Part shown: positions 2,002 through 11,680 of the stretch, piece by piece
Layout: each line of letters opens with the position of its first letter
Numbering within the stretch: the first letter of the stretch is position 1
Source of the DNA: a virus
Lineage: Duplodnaviria; Heunggongvirae; Uroviricota; Caudoviricetes
DNA length: 11,680 nucleotides
Virus record (IMG/VR): IMGVR_UViG_3300028883_000047
Span: 1 to 11,680 of that record
Direction: 5' to 3' (one strand)
Position numbers and translations under genes: made by a program
Notes under the pieces: generated by a model
Seen by the model: the letters and a program-made list of their open reading frames with translations, nothing else
What the model was told of the DNA's origin: nothing
The model's database searches: none

Positions 2002-2079
2002 TGGTACCCACCCTCGGATTCGAACCGAGATACAAGAGGACTTAAATCTCCCCGCGATTGCCAATTAGCGTAGGTGGGC
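2002..2079 (-). tRNA. tRNA-Leu(TAA), short variable loop
   Basis: GCCCACC/GGTGGGT acceptor, Leu-type D loop AATTGGCAA, anticodon loop TTTAAGT (A31-C39 mismatch), 5-nt variable loop TGTAT, A73 and CCA. Confidence 0.8.
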
Positions 2080-5448: not shown

Positions 5449-5550
5449 ATTCTCCCACAGGGATCGAACCTGTACCACTTTACCATAAAGAGTCAGCCTA
5501 ACTGTTACTCAACTCAGGGGGAGTGTGTGCTACCATTACACCAAAGAGAA
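5449..5550 (-). ncRNA. tRNA-like RNA with an insertion in place of the anticodon loop
   Basis: Acceptor TTCTCTT/GGGAGAA, D arm GTGT-AATGGTA-GCAC, T arm ACAGG-TTCGATC-CCTGT. Anticodon stem CACT/AGTG encloses about 40 nt. No CCA. Confidence 0.65.
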
Positions 5551-6279: not shown

Positions 6280-6282
6280 ATA

Positions 6283-6406
6283 ACAAGACGCATTTTTGCA
6301 TGGCTGGTGTTCTACCATTGAACTACAGACCAACATTCATCGATCTGGTGGGGTTCGAACCCACAACCCCCAGCTTGGGATAGCATTATTGCTGTTAGCG
6401 TCTTAA
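6283..6406 (-). ncRNA. CAGCAA-scaffold element A enclosing a circularly permuted tRNA
   Basis: Order on the minus strand: AAGACGC..ACAGCAA, GCTGG (anticodon stem 3'), T arm, CAGATCG, linker, TGGTCTG, D arm GTTC-AATGGTA-GAAC, CCAGC (anticodon stem 5'), GCGTCTT. Confidence 0.75.
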
Positions 6407-6410
6407 AATC

Positions 6411-6520
6411 AACAAGGCACGTTTTTTGCGAACCTAGGCGTCCAAAGCCAGCCACGGACTCGAACCGTGTTTCGGGTGTTTTACAGACACATGCTTTTAA
6501 ATTGCTGTGCGTGCCTTTAA
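6411..6520 (-). ncRNA. CAGCAA-scaffold element B with anticodon arm (GTA) and T arm
   Basis: AAGGCACG/CGTGCCTT helix, ACAGCAA, GTGT-CTGTAAA-ACAC, CACGG-TTCGAGT-CCGTG. Confidence 0.7.
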
Positions 6521-6524
6521 TTTG

Positions 6525-6701: not shown

Positions 6702-6739
6702 TATTTAGAAGTATCCATCAAAGAAATGAAAAAAGTCAA
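6702..6739 (-). promoter_or_regulatory. Putative tandem promoters: sigma70-like (TTGACT-18-GATACT) and late-type CTAAATA
   Basis: TTGACT at 6739-6734, GATACT at 6715-6710, CTAAATA at 6708-6702, all upstream of ATG 6671. Confidence 0.45.
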
Positions 6740-6820
6740 GGCACACTTGTCGGGATTGAACCGATCTATTCGATTTTTGAAATCAAACGTTATCCTAAGA
6801 TATTGCTGTTCGTGCCTTTA
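6735..6820 (-). ncRNA. CAGCAA-scaffold element C with anticodon arm (CAA) and T arm
   Basis: AAGGCAC/GTGCCTT helix, ACAGCAA, TTTGAT-TTCAAAA-ATCGAA, TCGG-TTCAATC-CCGA. Confidence 0.7.
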
Positions 6821-7252
6821 AATCGTTTTAATTGCTGCCATAATGACAACACATCCACTAGTGGTATCTTCTAGTTCCATTGAGTGGGTTTCGTTATGAT
6901 TGAATTCATATATGTGACCAAGCTGGACTTCTTCTGTCTGGCCATTCGCTGTTATAGTCGATTTACCAGTTGGTAAGATAACAGGAATTACGTATGTGGT
7001 GTCGGTGAATTTATCACCCAGCTGATCTGTGTGTGGTTCAGCTCCCTGACATACACTAAAATATACCCAATCAACTCGGTTAACATCAACTCCAGCAATT
7101 GCCGCAATTGACTGTTCCAACTCAGAACTAACAGCCCCGTGTTTTTGGAATTTTGCTGGCGTGTTTGTTTTGTAGTTTTCGTACTTGATCGTATCGGCAT
7201 GTGATACTACATGCTGGGGGATCTGTACGCTTCCGTGGTCGATTATATTCAT
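6818..7252 (-). CDS. Cupin/2OG-Fe(II) oxygenase-like protein (Asp/Asn beta-hydroxylase-like)
   Basis: HxD motif (EPHTD) and distal His (YEFNHNETHS) in a beta-strand-rich 144-aa protein. Confidence 0.65.
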   Translation of the reverse strand: MNIIDHGSVQIPQHVVSHADTIKYENYKTNTPAKFQKHGAVSSELEQSIAAIAGVDVNRVDWVYFSVCQGAEPHTDQLGDKFTDTTYVIPVILPTGKSTITANGQTEEVQLGHIYEFNHNETHSMELEDTTSGCVVIMAAIKTI

Positions 7253-8127: not shown

Positions 8128-8136
8128 TTGTTCATC

Positions 8137-8327
8137 GTAACCGATAGCCAGGATTCTGTCAAGGGACATCATTCATCTATTTGCCACAACCCGTCCTCAT
8201 AGGGTAGAGCTTCCCTCGGACTGTTTGTGTTGCATAGGACTTTTATTTGTAGTAAAACGCCGTAGCTCCTACAACATGCTCCGCCTATGTCCTGAGCTTC
8301 CTCACCGTAGTGCGATGCCCTGGTTAC
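8137..8327 (-). ncRNA. rnpB: Minimal type-A-like RNase P RNA (catalytic domain only)
   Basis: P1 GTAACC/GGTTAC, P2 GGCATC/GATGTC, P3 CAC-TACG-GTG. P4 AGC-(U)-CAGGA/TCCTGGCT lies in GAGGAAGCTC and ACAGAATCCTGGCTATC contexts. J5/15 CAA, L15 AAACA/GGGTT, and TAGATGAATGA. Confidence 0.88.
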
Positions 8328-8331
8328 AATT

Positions 8332-8422: not shown

Positions 8423-8520
8423 GAGCGGCGCTTAATGCTACCGGATGGACTTGAACCACCAACAAGACGTTTTCACGCGTCCGTTCTACGTTGAACTACA
8501 GTGACACTCGCATACCGCTC
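8423..8520 (-). ncRNA. Degenerate tRNA-Phe(GAA)-like core enclosed by an outer helix
   Basis: Core 8436-8505 has D arm GTTC-AACGTA-GAAC, GACG-CGTGAAAA-CGTC, T arm GGTGG-TTCAAGT-CCATC and no CCA. Outer stem GAGCGG/CCGCTC. Confidence 0.6.
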
Positions 8521-9593: not shown

Positions 9594-10007
9594 TTAGGTA
9601 CTGAGGCGACGCCCTCCTATCAGCTCAGCAAGGTACTCGCGTGACTCGTCCGACAACCCATCATACTCAGCGTTTCCGATGTCTTCATGAAGCTGTAATA
9701 TTTCAGGAGTGGCTTCTCCTTCCAGGTCGTACCCTCGTTGGAGGCACTCGTGCTGAAATACGGCGGTCAGTATCTCACCGAATTCTTCCGCTTTTACCAC
9801 CGTCTTGTTCCGTCGAGGCGGATCGGCGATCTTCTTCCTGTATGAAAGACCTGTTCCTCGCAGGCCGACGTTTGCGTGAACGCCTTGTTTTCCGACGGAT
9901 AGAGATGTTCCGCGAGGACCAATCCCAACACTTGATACTCCTTGCTTCCCGATGTTTATTCGGAAAAACTTACCGAGCGAGAAAATCTTTCGAAATCGAA
10001 AACCCAC
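9594..10007 (-). CDS. DUF4236 domain-containing protein
   Basis: GTG start at 10007 with SD GGAGG. MGFRFRKIFSLGKFFRINIGKQGVSSVGIG...NVGLRGTGLSY is the DUF4236 pattern. Confidence 0.85.
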   Translation of the reverse strand: MGFRFRKIFSLGKFFRINIGKQGVSSVGIGPRGTSLSVGKQGVHANVGLRGTGLSYRKKIADPPRRNKTVVKAEEFGEILTAVFQHECLQRGYDLEGEATPEILQLHEDIGNAEYDGLSDESREYLAELIGGRRLST

Positions 10008-10041
10008 GACTTGACCTCCATTTAATGTAGTACGTCTTCGC

Positions 10042-10070
10042 ATTATAGGAGCAAATCCCGTTGGGGTCAA
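10042..10070 (-). promoter_or_regulatory. Near-consensus sigma70 promoter
   Basis: TTGACC-17 nt-TATAAT upstream of the DUF4236 gene. Confidence 0.8.
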
Positions 10071-10074
10071 CGTT

Positions 10075-10084
10075 CACACCTTCC
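10075..10084 (-). repeat. 10-bp copy of the tRNA-Ser(GCT) 5' end (GGAAGGTGTG)
   Basis: Identical to 8720-8729. The two copies bracket the 8730-10074 gene block. Confidence 0.6.
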
Positions 10085-10090
10085 ATAATA

Positions 10091-10193
10091 AACAAGACGC
10101 ATCACCCCTGCCTTTGGGGCGAATATCCGTTGGCTGTTACACCGCCGGAATGGACTCGAACCATCAATTTTTGGTTTGCTGCTTGCGTCTTTA
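10091..10193 (-). ncRNA. CAGCAA-scaffold element D with T arm and two hairpins
   Basis: AAGACGCA/TGCGTCTT helix, GCAGCAA, GATGG-TTCGAGT-CCATT, CCG..CGG hairpin, GCCCC-AAAGGCA-GGGGT. Confidence 0.7.
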
Positions 10194-10298
10194 ATAGCGC
10201 CGCCCCACTGCCGTCAAGGTCCCTCATCCCAAGCATGACCAAGGGTGATGACGCTATCCCTCCCTAGGGGGTTTGTTACGAACAGTCGGAGCTATTAA
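10191..10298 (-). ncRNA. Unknown multibranched structured RNA (108 nt)
   Basis: TTAATAGC/GCTATTAA terminal helix, ACTG/CAGT, CGTCA/TGACG, GGTC/GACC and two side hairpins. No ORF. Confidence 0.5.
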
Positions 10299-10299
10299 T

Positions 10300-10385
10300 T
10301 GGTAGCGGGAGTAGGATTTGCACCTACGAAGCCTTGCGGCGGTGGGTTATGAGCCCAGCTACTTTGTCTACTTGTATATCCCGCG
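10300..10385 (-). tRNA. Initiator-type tRNA-fMet(CAT) with a long variable arm
   Basis: C1/T72 mismatch, GGG/CCC in the anticodon stem, loop CTCATAA, 14-nt variable region CGCCGCAAGGCTTC, T loop TGCAAAT, A73 and CCA. Confidence 0.82.
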
Positions 10386-10393
10386 ATAGAATT

Positions 10394-10468
10394 TGGTCCA
10401 CCCGGTAGGATTCGAACCTACCTCTCCTGCTCTTCAGGCAGGCGCTAATCCAACTCAGCTACAGGTGG
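10394..10468 (-). tRNA. tRNA-Phe(GAA)
   Basis: CCACCTG/CGGGTGG acceptor (C1-G72), CCTGC-CTGAAGA-GCAGG, A73 and CCA. Confidence 0.9.
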
Positions 10469-10479
10469 ATGGAAGAAAT

Positions 10480-10541
10480 TGGGGACCGTCGACGGGATTA
10501 ACCGTCATTAATCTCACGCAAGTCGTCACTTGGAACGGTCC
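10480..10541 (-). ncRNA. 62-nt tRNA-His-like mini RNA
   Basis: G-1, acceptor GACCGTT/GACGGTC, C73 and CCA. T-like arm GACGG-TTAATC-CCGTC and a single middle hairpin CAAGT-GACG-ACTTG. Confidence 0.6.
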
Positions 10542-10549
10542 ATAGAATT

Positions 10550-10623
10550 TGGCAGGCCCCCACGGATTCGAACCGCGACTAAGACTTTTGGAGAGTCGTG
10601 TGCTGCCGTTACACTAAGGGCCC
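10550..10623 (-). tRNA. tRNA-Trp(CCA)
   Basis: Anticodon loop CTCCAAA in stem CGACT/AGTCT, G73 and CCA. Confidence 0.92.
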
Positions 10624-10631
10624 ATTATTTA

Positions 10632-10691
10632 TCACTGAAAATTGGCTTTAATCCAACGCCAGTATTCGCTAATATCTGCTGCTTCTGTCAT
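10632..10691 (-). CDS. Small ORF (19 aa)
   Basis: MTEAADISEYWRWIKANFQ with SD GGAG 9 nt upstream. Fills the spacer between tRNA-Arg and tRNA-Trp. Confidence 0.45.
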   Translation of the reverse strand: MTEAADISEYWRWIKANFQ

Positions 10692-10717
10692 TTTACTATT
10701 CTCCGTTGATATGAATT

Positions 10718-10795
10718 TGGCACCCACCACAGGATTCGAACCTGCATCCACTTGATTCGTAGTCAAGCACTCTAATCCAATTGAGCTAAGTGGGC
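10718..10795 (-). tRNA. tRNA-Arg(ACG)
   Basis: CTTGA-CTACGAA-TCAAG anticodon arm, A20, G73 and CCA. Confidence 0.94.
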
Positions 10796-10802
10796 ATTAA
10801 AT

Positions 10803-10942
10803 AACAAGACACAATTTTTTCCGACAGGCGCCTTTACCAGACTTGGCCATACCCCCAAAGGATGATTGGTGGGGGCAGCGGGATTCGAACCACGCGAATA
10901 CCTGTTTTACCAAAGGAGTTGAGTTGCTGGTTGTGTCTTTAA
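10803..10942 (-). ncRNA. CAGCAA-scaffold element E enclosing a circularly permuted tRNA with encoded CCA
   Basis: Order on the minus strand: AAGACACAA..CCAGCAA, ACAGG, TATTC, T arm, TGCCCCC-A-CCA, 10-nt linker, GGGGGTA, D arm GCC..GGC, CCTGT, TTGTGTCTT. Confidence 0.82.
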
Positions 10943-10944
10943 AC

Positions 10945-11023
10945 TGGTTGTGAGTTGTGGTAACGATCCACGGGGGTAGCTACTCCTAACGGCTCATGAC
11001 GCCGTCCCTTCCTTATACTCACA
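10945..11023 (-). ncRNA. D-armless tRNA-like RNA with CAT anticodon
   Basis: Perfect acceptor TGTGAGT/ACTCACA, A73 and CCA. ACGGC-GTCATGA-GCCGT arm, 11-nt unpaired D-replacement loop, long variable arm, aberrant T loop ATCGTTA. Confidence 0.65.
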
Positions 11024-11029
11024 TTAATT

Positions 11030-11107
11030 TGGTGTTCCGTACGGGATTCGAACCCGTGTTTGAAGATTGAAAGTCTTCTGTCCTAGACCTGACTAGACGA
11101 ACGGAAC
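11030..11107 (-). tRNA. tRNA-Glu(TTC)
   Basis: GTTCCGT/ACGGAAC acceptor, GAAGA-CTTTCAA-TCTTC, A73 and CCA. Confidence 0.93.
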
Positions 11108-11112
11108 AAAAT

Positions 11113-11190
11113 TGGCGTCATCGACGAGATTCGAACTCGCATCTACAAGATTGAAAGTCTTGTGTTCTAGGCCAATTAAACTACGATGAC
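11113..11190 (-). tRNA. tRNA-Glu(TTC), second copy with a divergent body
   Basis: GTCATCG/CGATGAC acceptor, CAAGA-CTTTCAA-TCTTG, G73 and CCA. Confidence 0.9.
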
Positions 11191-11195
11191 AAATT

Positions 11196-11279
11196 TGGTG
11201 GGTGCAGATGGAGTCGAACCACCACGGTCTGAGACGTCTGGTTTACAGCCAGGTGAGCCCGCCAATGCTCAGTACACCC
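11196..11279 (-). tRNA. tRNA-Tyr(GTA)
   Basis: GGGTGTA/TGCACCC acceptor, loop CTGTAAA, long variable arm, A73 and CCA. C at position 8. Confidence 0.9.
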
Positions 11280-11285
11280 AAAATT

Positions 11286-11370
11286 TGGTGGATGAGGTAG
11301 GAATCGAACCTACACGCCCTAAGGGAACTGGGTTACAGCCAGTCGAGCCCACCACCTGCTCAACTCATCC
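11286..11370 (-). tRNA. tRNA-Tyr(GTA), second copy
   Basis: GGATGAG/CTCATCC acceptor, ACTGG-CTGTAAC-CCAGT, long variable arm, A73 and CCA. Confidence 0.9.
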
Positions 11371-11468
11371 AAGTACGGCTGTTACTACGCTTTGTGGCCA
11401 CGCCACGTACCAACAGCACTAACCGACTCACCTACACTCAGAGTGGCCACTCCTTCTTAGCGAGCCTC

Positions 11469-11540
11469 GCACAACGACAGGATTCGAACCTGCGTCCCCG
11501 GCTGTGCGCCGGTATCCTATCCAGACTAGACGACGTCATA
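11469..11540 (-). pseudogene. tRNA-like sequence with a Glu/Asp-type body, degenerate anticodon loop and no CCA
   Basis: TATGACG/CGTTGTG acceptor, D arm GTCT..GGAT, CCGGC-GCACA-GCCGG (no U33), canonical T arm GCAGG-TTCGAAT-CCTGT. Confidence 0.65.
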
Positions 11541-11545
11541 CTATT

Positions 11546-11619
11546 TGGCTACCCCTCCTGGATTTGAACCAGGGACGACTGAGTCAGAGTCAGTAATGTT
11601 ACCGCTACACCAAGGGGCA
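11546..11619 (-). tRNA. tRNA-Gln(CTG)
   Basis: U1-A72 acceptor TGCCCCT/AGGGGTA, ACTGA-CTCTGAC-TCAGT, G73 and CCA. Confidence 0.93.
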
Positions 11620-11625
11620 ATAATT

Positions 11626-11680
11626 TGGTACCACTCCTCGGATTCGAACCGAGACTCACTGCGTTCTGAGCACAGCCGCT
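11626..11680 (-). tRNA. tRNA-Leu(CAG), short variable loop (5' part outside the window)
   Basis: CTGTG-CTCAGAA-CGCAG, variable loop TGAGT, T arm CTCGG-TTCGAAT-CCGAG, A73 and CCA. Confidence 0.82.

What the first reader, a model, noticed from the sequence alone, without database searches (positions are those of the whole stretch)
10803..10942. Circularly permuted tRNA with an internal CCA (element E)
Seen: the 3' half comes first: anticodon-stem strand ACAGG (10905-10901), variable loop, T arm, acceptor strand TGCCCCC, A73 and CCA (10869-10867). After a 10-nt linker comes the 5' half: GGGGGTA (10856-10850), D arm and CCTGT (10828-10824). The halves form a full cloverleaf whose anticodon loop is opened and tied into the 9-bp scaffold helix. 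Established: permuted tRNA genes are known in some algae and the archaeon Thermofilum, where they mature through a circular intermediate. Two-piece tmRNAs use the same permutation logic with RNase P removing the linker. Inference: RNase P cutting at G1 and trimming to CCA would give a chargeable two-piece tRNA with no cleavable anticodon loop. Alternatively, ligation could restore a loop; the flanks TGGTAAA and CGGAAAA suggest GTA or GAA, but U33 is absent.
Basis: partly seen in the sequence, partly recalled or inferred. Interest (0 to 1): 0.9.

Follow-up and report, generated by a model that had tools for sequence, protein, structure and literature searches.

The report
Phage Y-like RNA mimicking a tRNA
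The flagged 140 bases are a real small-RNA gene of a large marine phage: a tRNA body with its ends moved to the anticodon position, mounted on a conserved stem. It belongs to an uncatalogued phage family that accompanies a Ro60-like ring protein, so it is a tRNA mimic rather than a decoding tRNA.

Summary
On the minus strand of 10803-10942, a 9-bp closing helix encloses a rotated tRNA body. In order it has an anticodon-stem strand, T arm, 7-nt acceptor strand, A73-CCA, 10-nt linker, acceptor 5' strand, D arm and the second anticodon-stem strand.

It is not an algal or archaeal type of permuted tRNA gene. It has the topology of YrlA, the tRNA-mimicking bacterial Y RNA. It carries a "CAGCAA handle" that five other RNAs of this contig share, as do well over a hundred elements in IMG/VR phages.

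A covariance model built only from other phages scores it 62.6 bits (E about 1e-11). All four helices of the family covary.

In other phages the handle co-occurs with a DUF2828/DUF7788 protein, often right next to its gene. The predicted fold of that protein matches Ro60. This contig is only about 24% complete and holds no such gene.

The 7-bp acceptor stem followed by NCCA recurs in about 12% of tRNA-type members. Mycobacterium smegmatis YrlA, which has the same design, is cut by RNase P into two pieces. Cleavage here is therefore plausible but untested.

This scan has already found the handle family in many other genomes. I class it as a new variant of a known kind.

The parts
10931..10939 (-). 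Handle helix, 5' strand (AAGACACAA). It pairs with 10806-10814.
   Evidence: The helix covaries across the family.
10924..10929 (-). CAGCAA motif. It is unpaired and lies one base 3' of the helix.
   Evidence: It is nearly invariant in 25 family members that were not retrieved through the search pattern.
10906..10923 (-). 5' spacer (internal loop) between the handle and the tRNA-like body.
10901..10905 (-). Anticodon-stem strand ACAGG (tRNA positions 39-43). It pairs with 10824-10828.
10896..10900 (-). Variable region TATTC. C48 can form the Levitt pair with G15.
   Evidence: Read from the sequence. The Levitt pair is an inference.
10878..10895 (-). T arm: GCG(U)GG, then the loop TTCGAAT, then CCCGC. 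One U is bulged.
10871..10877 (-). Acceptor 3' strand TGCCCCC.
   Evidence: It forms 7 of 7 pairs with 10850-10856.
10867..10870 (-). Discriminator A73 and the encoded CCA.
   Evidence: NCCA at this exact offset is enriched in the family.
10857..10866 (-). 10-nt linker that closes the acceptor hairpin. It would serve as both trailer and leader if RNase P cuts.
   Evidence: Cleavage is inferred from M. smegmatis YrlA.
10850..10856 (-). Acceptor 5' strand GGGGGTA. G1 is at 10856.
10829..10849 (-). U8 and G9, a D arm (3-bp stem GCC/GGC with a 12-nt loop holding A14, G18G19 and A21) and G26.
10824..10828 (-). Anticodon-stem strand CCTGT (tRNA positions 27-31).
10815..10823 (-). 3' spacer CGGAAAAAA (internal loop).
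10805..10814 (-). Handle helix 3' strand TTGTGTCTT plus the conserved G that follows it.

Best explanation
Element E is a non-coding RNA of the Y-RNA kind. It is a YrlA-type tRNA mimic mounted on the phage "CAGCAA handle": a closing helix AAAGRCRC/GYGYCUU, an unpaired CAGCAA, and a G after the helix.

The handle is most likely the docking site for a Ro60-like ring protein of the Pfam DUF2828/DUF7788 family. This is inferred from gene linkage in other phages. The gene itself is not in the part of this genome that is held.

The cargo is a complete tRNA body without an anticodon loop. Its anticodon stem opens into the handle. Its acceptor stem is closed by a 14-nt loop that begins A73-CCA.

The RNA sits inside a long tRNA operon. 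It is probably released by the enzymes that process the neighbouring tRNAs (inferred).

It has a 7-bp acceptor stem stacked on a T arm, an encoded RCCA and a single-stranded stretch before G1. It is therefore a plausible RNase P substrate. A cut at 10857/10856 followed by 3' trimming to CCA would give a nicked two-piece RNA. The acceptor stem and the handle would hold the pieces together, as was shown for M. smegmatis YrlA. This cleavage step is inferred, not shown.

Its role would be that of other Y RNAs. It would gate the Ro-like ring or tether it to tRNA-binding or RNA-degrading host factors during infection. It would not decode codons.
For: - Rfam YrlA (RF02553) aligns end to end with E (positions 1-114 of 114) and with its sister at 6282-6404 (36.7 bits, E 2e-6). 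The order is handle, T arm, closed acceptor hairpin, D arm, handle.
- Exactly five handle motifs lie in the window, against 0 of 200 shuffles with that many. A sixth lies at 44.9 kb of the contig.
- Pattern scans of IMG/VR returned several hundred matching stretches. At least 300 distinct handle-bounded elements lie in the 220 loci fetched. Only 4 of 120 matches in bacterial genome contigs are of this paired kind.
- Model R1, built only from other phages, scores E at 62.6 bits.
- On 64 hits, 95.9% of cells are paired, against 36-48% when partners are slid. All 24 pairs show compensatory changes.
- CAGCAA stays nearly invariant in members that were not found through the pattern, while the helix covaries.
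- A DUF2828 gene is present in 5 of 5 and then 35 of 42 contigs that hold the motif. Of these 42 contigs, none of the five with only an unpaired chance match has the gene. A complete relative that lacks the RNA also lacks the gene.
- The RNA lies 14 nt after the gene in G001 and within about 300 nt before it in G003 and G004.
- In a 98%-complete 39-kb phage the gene is followed by five tandem handle RNAs. One of them is the closest analogue of E: a 7-bp acceptor stem, ACCA and a 10-nt linker.
- The AlphaFold model of the DUF2828 protein has Ro60/TROVE structures as its 12 best PDB matches, over the full length. One family member also hits Pfam vWA_Ro60 weakly.
- The apical part of sister element 6410-6521 is 84% identical to an RNA 0.5 kb upstream of the Ro-like gene of Streptomyces phage Genie2.
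- Caulobacter phage CcrPW has a cluster of the same topology next to its TROVE gene. One member has a 7-bp acceptor stem plus ACCA.
- NCCA directly after the acceptor strand is found in 6 of 52 distinct members. CCA at other loop offsets is found 1 time in 190. The binomial p is about 3e-4.
- M. smegmatis YrlA, the one YrlA with a 7-bp acceptor stem, is cut by RNase P in vivo and in vitro and carries a CCA end (PMC4201824).
- A reduced RNase P RNA is encoded 2.5 kb away.
Against: - No DUF2828 or TROVE gene is in the 75.7 kb held, even with all filters off. The contig is about 24% complete, so this is not decisive. However, two contigs with a convincing handle RNA also lack the gene, one of them 100% complete.
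- E reaches only 19.6 bits on Rfam YrlA, whose gathering score is 69. It also lacks the GNCGAA motif.
- There are no expression data for this phage.
- Contigs from RNA libraries cover the analogue in L044 without a break at the linker. This neither shows nor excludes cleavage.
- A member with the same acceptor stem as that analogue reads ACTG instead of ACCA. CCA is therefore not kept everywhere and could be a relic. In this contig 45 of 46 tRNA genes encode CCA.
- The bulged U in the T stem might weaken recognition by RNase P or other tRNA enzymes.
- Binding of any handle RNA to a DUF2828 protein has never been tested.
Confidence: 0.7

Rival explanations
1. E stays one continuous chain. The ACCA and the 10-nt linker are merely the loop that closes the acceptor hairpin, left over from the CCA-encoding tRNA gene that gave rise to the cargo. 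RNase P does not cut it. It is still a Y-like tRNA mimic on the handle.
For: - Most tRNA-type members close the acceptor stem with short loops that have no CCA.
- S. Typhimurium YrlA and D. radiodurans Yrn1 are not cleaved (PMC4201824).
- 45 of 46 tRNA genes of this contig encode CCA, so a captured tRNA would bring CCA along.
- A member with the same acceptor stem as the L044 analogue has ACTG in place of ACCA.
- RNA-library contigs span the linker of the analogue.
Against: - NCCA sits at the exact post-acceptor offset in 6 of 52 otherwise unrelated cargos, but at other offsets only 1 time in 190.
- No tRNA of the contig is a close paralogue of E, so the capture is not recent. Yet CCA and a perfect 7-bp stem persist.
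- The one characterised YrlA with a 7-bp stem is cleaved.
Confidence: 0.3
2. After RNase P cleavage and trimming, the CCA end is aminoacylated. The charged two-piece molecule is the active form. It has no anticodon loop and so cannot be cut by anticodon nucleases.
For: - E has a perfect 7-bp acceptor stem, A73 and an encoded CCA.
- It has the D- and T-loop nucleotides needed for the tRNA elbow: A14, G18G19, T54-C56 and a G15-C48 pair.
- The authors of the YrlA study raise possible aminoacylation of cleaved M. smegmatis YrlA.
Against: - No identity set can be read. There is no G3-U70, no long variable arm and no anticodon.
- The T stem is bulged.
- Aminoacylation has not been shown for any Y RNA.
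- Most family members cannot expose a CCA end at all.
Confidence: 0.08
3. E is a true permuted tRNA gene, as in Cyanidioschyzon or Thermofilum. The transcript would be circularised or ligated at its ends and reopened at the acceptor stem. The product would be a normal decoding tRNA.
For: - The 3' half precedes the 5' half, and all four stems can form.
- The phage carries many unusual tRNAs.
Against: - Joining the flanks gives a 14-nt stretch without U33, which ARAGORN does not accept.
- The termini form a 9-bp helix plus CAGCAA. They do not form a bulge-helix-bulge.
- The identical termini carry dozens of cargos with no tRNA features, and cargos in normal tRNA order.
- The family is linked to a Ro60-like gene, not to splicing enzymes.
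Confidence: 0.03
4. E is a two-piece (permuted) tmRNA gene.
For: The T arm, acceptor strand, CCA, linker and acceptor 5' strand align weakly to part of Rfam tmRNA_permuted, at 10.5 bits.
Against: - The score is far below the gathering score of 47.
- There is no tag reading frame and there are no pseudoknots.
- ARAGORN, which searches for permuted tmRNA, reports none.
- A full D arm and an anticodon stem are present, unlike in tmRNA.
Confidence: 0.01

Closest known systems
YrlA of Mycobacterium smegmatis (bacterial Y RNA, Rfam RF02553; Chen et al. 2014, PMC4201824)
   Same: - The 5' and 3' ends pair in a basal stem.
- The other module is a tRNA mimic in the order T arm, acceptor stem-loop, D arm.
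- The acceptor stem has 7 bp.
- The M. smegmatis RNA is cut by RNase P at the G1 position and ends in CCA, which gives two pieces.
   Different: - E lacks the GNCGAA(N)G motif and has a CAGCAA handle instead.
- It scores 19.6 bits against a gathering score of 69.
- No TROVE gene is nearby. The linked protein family in related phages is DUF2828/DUF7788.
- The whole CCA is encoded and is followed by a 10-nt linker.
- E lies inside a phage tRNA operon.
Y-like RNAs next to the TROVE genes of Caulobacter phage CcrPW (Colossusvirus) and Streptomyces phage Genie2. Phage Y RNAs were noted by Chen et al. 2014. Yrl1 and Yrl2 of Thermus phage phiLo bind its Ro60 (PMC12135203).
   Same: - These are phage-encoded clusters of several stem-closed RNAs with tRNA-like cargo beside a Ro-type gene.
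- One CcrPW member has a 7-bp acceptor stem, ACCA and a linker, like E.
- The Genie2 RNA is 84% identical to the apical part of sister element 6410-6521.
   Different: Their basal stems carry the CGAA-type motif, and the protein is a recognisable TROVE domain. The window's family has a different handle and a partner that Pfam files as DUF2828.
CAGCAA-handle RNAs beside DUF2828 genes in other phages. The family is uncatalogued. Earlier follow-ups of this scan noted it, for example e1-1864752, e1-249635 and e1-5328333.
   Same: The handle, the variable tRNA-derived cargo and the location in tRNA clusters are the same. E fits a model built from such members.
   Different: E is one of the minority (about 12% of tRNA-type members) that keep a 7-nt acceptor strand followed by NCCA. 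No partner gene is visible in the part of the genome held.
Permuted tRNA genes of Cyanidioschyzon merolae and Thermofilum pendens (from my own knowledge of that literature)
   Same: The 3' half is encoded upstream of the 5' half. The acceptor strands are joined by a short linker that holds the CCA or trailer.
   Different: Those genes restore a normal anticodon loop by ligating the termini through a bulge-helix-bulge and a circular intermediate. E has no such motif and no possible loop, and it shares its termini with non-tRNA cargos.
Two-piece tmRNA (Rfam tmRNA_permuted, RF04321)
   Same: It has a permuted tRNA-like domain, with an internal CCA that is exposed by processing.
   Different: E has no tag reading frame or pseudoknots, but it does have a full D arm and an anticodon stem. 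It scores 10.5 bits against a gathering score of 47.

Membership tests
YrlA (Rfam RF02553) | Basal stem formed by the 5' and 3' ends, then T arm, closed acceptor-like stem-loop and D arm, in that order | tested here: met
   The full-length alignment covers positions 1-114 of 114 with this structure. The same layout is found by model R1.
YrlA (Rfam RF02553) | Score at or above Rfam's gathering threshold of 69 bits | tested here: not met
   E scores 19.6 bits. The sister element scores 36.7 to 37.7 bits.
YrlA (Rfam RF02553) | GNCGAA(N0-1)G motif in the 5' strand, the presumed Ro60 contact (PMC4201824) | tested here: not met
   The 5' strand reads AAAGACACAACCAGCAA and has no CGAA.
YrlA (Rfam RF02553) | Encoded within about 4 kb of a TROVE (Ro60) gene on the same strand | tested here: not met
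   There is no TROVE match in the 75.7-kb contig, nor in five large genomes that carry the handle. The contig is only about 24% complete.
YrlA (Rfam RF02553) | Bound by Ro60/Rsr in cells | not testable with these tools
   This needs immunoprecipitation or a gel-shift assay.
CAGCAA-handle phage RNAs (uncatalogued) | Closing helix AAAGRCRC/GYGYCUU of 8-9 bp that covaries | tested here: met
   E has a 9-bp helix. The helix covaries in the family.
CAGCAA-handle phage RNAs (uncatalogued) | Unpaired CAGCAA 1-4 nt after the 5' strand, and a G after the 3' strand | tested here: met
   CAGCAA lies at 10929-10924 and the G at 10805. The motif is nearly invariant in 25 members found independently of the pattern.
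CAGCAA-handle phage RNAs (uncatalogued) | Significant match to a covariance model built from members in other genomes | tested here: met
   Model R1 gives 62.6 bits and E about 1e-11.
CAGCAA-handle phage RNAs (uncatalogued) | The genome encodes a Ro60-like DUF2828/DUF7788 protein, often adjacent to the RNA | tested here: inconclusive
   The gene is absent from the 24% of the genome that is held. It is present in 40 of 47 other contigs with the motif.
Permuted tRNA genes (Cyanidioschyzon, Thermofilum) | 3' half encoded upstream of the 5' half | tested here: met
Permuted tRNA genes (Cyanidioschyzon, Thermofilum) | Joining the termini restores a 7-nt anticodon loop with U33 | tested here: not met
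   The joined flanks are not accepted by ARAGORN. They give 14 nt without U33.
Permuted tRNA genes (Cyanidioschyzon, Thermofilum) | Bulge-helix-bulge motif at the termini for the splicing endonuclease | tested here: not met
   The termini form an uninterrupted 9-bp helix followed by asymmetric loops of 19 nt (a single C, then CAGCAA, then a 12-nt spacer) and 9 nt. This was judged by inspection only.
Two-piece tmRNA | Tag reading frame, pseudoknots and a match to the family model | tested here: not met
   ARAGORN reports no tmRNA. Rfam tmRNA_permuted gives 10.5 bits against a gathering score of 47.

The most novel reading that the evidence does not exclude
E is cut at G1 by RNase P, possibly by the reduced RNase P RNA that the phage encodes 2.5 kb away, and is trimmed to CCA. 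The resulting two-piece tRNA body is then aminoacylated while it is held on a Ro60-like ring. That would make it a charged tRNA mimic with no anticodon loop. Anticodon nucleases could not cut it. The phage could use it to occupy or redirect host factors that bind tRNA.
Probability: 0.08. Interest if true: 0.9.

Novelty: new variant of a known kind. Interest (0 to 1): 0.6.

Why it matters
Y RNAs that mimic tRNA are known from a few bacteria and phages. What they do remains open.

This element belongs to a much larger family that is specific to phages and is absent from Rfam. I found no paper that describes it in the searches I ran. The family has a different docking handle and a partner protein that Pfam still lists as a domain of unknown function. 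Its cargos sample almost every way of rearranging a tRNA.

A subset, including this element, keeps exactly the features that make M. smegmatis YrlA an RNase P substrate: a 7-bp acceptor stem followed by NCCA. Such members offer a compact system for two tests. One is whether Ro-type particles use a free CCA end. The other is why phages place these RNAs inside their tRNA operons, which bears on how phages and hosts fight over tRNA.

For annotation the practical point is that such elements should not be called permuted or split tRNA genes.

Tried and rejected
- **Near-identical phages.** A megablast of 10000-11680 against GenBank phages found nothing. A distant blastn of E alone hit only T-arm stretches of ordinary tRNAs.
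- **TROVE as the partner.** It is absent from the contig and from five large handle-bearing genomes. This pointed to another protein family.
- **Handle in bacterial chromosomes next to rsr.** Only 4 of 120 pattern matches in bacterial genome contigs are of the paired kind, so the family is essentially viral.
- **Relatives of this phage.** They were found through the AAA ATPase gene at 52-56% identity. They have no E orthologue, no handle RNAs in the one complete genome, and no DUF2828 or TROVE gene. Weak model hits there look like tandem tRNA pairs, which I did not check.
- **Origin of the cargo.** No tRNA of the contig is a close paralogue of E; only the T loop matches.
- **Sequence search of the DUF2828 profile against PDB.** It found nothing useful. 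The fold search was needed.
- **Expression.** No RNA run holds the window. RNA-library contigs of the L044 array are continuous across the linker, and contigs cannot show RNA ends.
- **Promoters and terminators.** The scan found no minus-strand promoter or terminator near E.
- **Other readings.** The tmRNA and dimeric-tRNA readings were rejected.

Full report
**Context.** The window is the first 11.7 kb of a 75.7-kb IMG/VR virus contig that CheckV rates about 24% complete. The full genome would then be about 300 kb. The phage comes from marine sediment. The minus strand carries a dense tRNA operon. ARAGORN tRNAs in the window and 46 in the contig, and 45 of the 46 encode their CCA. Small ORFs are interspersed.

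**The observation.** Every coordinate in the finding is right. On the minus strand a 9-bp helix pairs 10939-10931 with 10814-10806. Inside it, in order, lie ACAGG, a 5-nt variable region, a T arm, the acceptor strand TGCCCCC, A73-CCA, a 10-nt linker, GGGGGTA, U8-G9, a D arm and CCTGT.

- Re-joined through an artificial 7-nt loop, the halves are called a tRNA by ARAGORN. Joined through their own flanks, they are not.
- The single-sequence fold reproduces the helices, but its energy is unremarkable (z = -1.45).
- The T stem has one bulged U.
- No tRNA is called over the element. Neither half has a partner half beside it, so it is not a tandem-tRNA artefact.

**What it resembles.** With permissive thresholds, the only Rfam family that spans the element is YrlA, the tRNA-mimicking bacterial Y RNA. 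The match is full-length but weak: 19.6 bits against a gathering score of 69. A sister element at 6282-6404 scores 36.7 bits, E 2e-6.

It is a basal stem made by the two ends, then T arm, closed acceptor stem-loop and D arm.

Chen et al. (PMC4201824) showed that M. smegmatis YrlA is the one member with a 7-bp acceptor stem. It is cut by RNase P in vivo and by M1 RNA in vitro. The 5' piece ends in CCA, and the result is a two-piece RNA bound by the Ro60 orthologue.

**The handle family.** Five elements in the window, and a sixth at 44.9 kb, share the frame AAGRCRC, three bases, CAGCAA, cargo, GYGYCTTG.

- Scanning IMG/VR for the 5' motif returned several hundred matching stretches. In most of them the exact complement of the helix follows within 30-300 nt and is itself followed by G.
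- In bacterial genome contigs only 4 of 120 matches have that form. The family is therefore viral.
- Cargos range from short hairpins to tRNA bodies in normal order. Others are rotated at the anticodon loop, at the variable region, or between the D and anticodon arms.

I aligned 28 members with the YrlA-like order, none from the window, and built covariance model R1.

- R1 scores E at 62.6 bits (E about 1e-11) and its sister at 81.2 bits. The three other window elements score 33-49 bits, and true tRNAs score below 19 bits.
- On 64 hits, 95.9% of cells pair, against 36-48% when partners are slid. All 24 pairs have compensatory changes, and 0 of 500 shuffles reach the observed values. That alignment is fitted to the model, so the figures lean towards the structure, but the contrast is large.
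- In 25 phage rows not retrieved through my pattern, CAGCAA is nearly invariant while the helix changes sequence.

**The partner.** No TROVE gene is in the contig or in five large handle-bearing genomes. Notes from earlier follow-ups of this scan named Pfam DUF2828 as the neighbour. I tested that lead independently.

- DUF2828 is present in 5 of 5 and then in 35 of 42 motif-bearing contigs. It is absent from all 14 control bacteria.
- Of these 42 contigs, the five with only an unpaired, chance-like match all lack it. Two contigs with a convincing RNA also lack it.
- A complete 344-kb relative of this phage has neither the RNA nor the gene.
- The RNA begins 14 nt after the gene's stop codon in G001. 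In G003 and G004 it lies within about 300 nt upstream.
- In a 98%-complete 39-kb phage the gene is followed by five tandem handle RNAs.
- The proteins are about 480-540 residues long and combine DUF2828 with DUF7788, which has weak vWA hits.
- An AlphaFold model (pLDDT 72) has Ro60/TROVE structures as its twelve best PDB matches over the full length. These include Xenopus Ro60, D. radiodurans Rsr and Thermus phage phiLo Ro60, with E down to 6e-7.

Two further links to classical Ro systems emerged.

- The apical part of 6410-6521 is 84% identical to an unannotated RNA 0.5 kb upstream of the Ro-like gene of Streptomyces phage Genie2. That RNA carries the CGAA-type stem.
- Caulobacter phage CcrPW has a cluster of stem-closed tRNA mimics directly upstream of its TROVE gene. 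One of them has a 7-bp acceptor stem, ACCA and a 30-nt linker.

In the window's own contig the partner gene is not present, even at maximum sensitivity. For this phage the partnership therefore remains an inference.

**The internal CCA.** There are 52 distinct members with a tRNA-type module. In six of them NCCA follows directly after the 7-nt acceptor strand: E, L044:4307-4442, L072:4947-5087, L334, L330 and L116. CCA at any other loop offset occurs 1 time in 190. The binomial p is about 3e-4 on the 5 of 51 counted by the script, which dropped the L044 element when removing duplicates.

- The closest analogue, in L044, has the same layout as E (ACCA plus a 10-nt linker) and sits in the Ro-like gene's RNA array.
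- A member with the same acceptor stem as that analogue reads ACTG instead. CCA is therefore not universally kept.
- E has no close paralogue among the contig's 46 tRNAs, so it is not a fresh copy.
- A reduced RNase P RNA lies at 8129-8331. It matches the full length of the class A model with most of its central helices deleted, including those of the specificity domain (35.7 bits, E 5e-10 for that stretch).

**Mechanism.**
- Shown: the structure, the family membership, the covariation, and the linkage of the family to a Ro60-fold protein.
- Inferred: the handle docks that protein, and the RNA is excised from the tRNA operon transcript. No promoter or terminator lies nearby. tRNA-Arg begins 10 nt after the handle.
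- Also inferred: RNase P cuts before G1 and exonucleases trim to CCA, giving a nicked two-piece mimic.
- Speculative: aminoacylation.

**Limits.**
- There are no RNA data for this phage.
- RNA-library contigs cover the L044 array continuously, and contigs cannot reveal RNA ends.
- Neither DUF2828 as a phage Ro partner nor the handle turned up in the literature searches I ran. Those searches cover open-access text only.

**Verdict.** The element is a Y-like tRNA mimic of an uncatalogued phage family, which this scan has already met in many other genomes. It is not a permuted decoding tRNA. It belongs to the minority that keeps a complete acceptor stem plus CCA.

Noticed in passing
window 8129-8331 (minus strand): A reduced RNase P RNA of about 200 nt. 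It matches the full length of Rfam RNaseP_bact_a (positions 1-367 of 367) at 35.7 bits, E 5e-10 for that stretch. The P4 strands and the UAGAUGAAUG tract are kept, but most of the central helices, including those of the specificity domain, are deleted. It is far below the gathering score of 100.
   Followed up: partly
window 6281-6408, 6410-6521, 6734-6822 and 10090-10195 (minus strand); G000:44834-44900: Five further CAGCAA-handle RNAs. 6281-6408 is a second YrlA-type mimic, with its 7-bp acceptor stem closed by ATGAATGT and no CCA. The others carry only a T arm or a short hairpin.
   Followed up: partly
window 6431-6492 (minus strand) and L124:1501-1562: The apical part of the handle RNA at 6410-6521 is 84% identical to an unannotated RNA 0.5 kb upstream of the Ro-like gene in many Streptomyces phages (Genie2, Yaboi, Karimac and others). 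There it is mounted on a CGAA-type stem. The same cargo thus appears on two different handles.
   Followed up: partly
L125:1330-2440 (Caulobacter phage CcrPW, MH588545.1, about 116.0-117.2 kb): An unannotated cluster of at least six stem-closed tRNA mimics. They are framed by GGTGGCGTAG...GTTCCCCCACC and lie directly upstream of a TROVE gene that is annotated only as hypothetical.
   Followed up: partly
L044:3985-5938 (IMGVR_UViG_3300001520_000027, 39 kb, 98% complete): A small phage with a DUF2828/DUF7788 gene followed by five tandem handle RNAs. Two of them have CTGCAA or CTGCAT, and one CAGCAT, in place of CAGCAA. The array is present in animal-gut RNA libraries from two studies.
   Followed up: partly
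window 2002-2079 (minus strand): ARAGORN calls a tRNA with anticodon UUA, a suppressor that would read the UAA stop codon.
   Followed up: no
window 5449-5550, 8436-8505 and 10303-10385 (minus strand): Three tRNA-like genes that Rfam finds (30.7-37.5 bits) but ARAGORN does not. 5449-5550 is about 100 nt long and appears to carry an insertion.
   Followed up: no
window 10945-11023 (minus strand): The stretch directly upstream of E ends in ACCA four bases before the handle. If it is real, its 3' processing would define the 5' end of E.
   Followed up: no
G032 (the 200-kb contig behind L118, 100% complete): This contig has a convincing handle RNA but no DUF2828 match. It is an exception to the RNA-protein linkage and is worth a closer look.
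   Followed up: no
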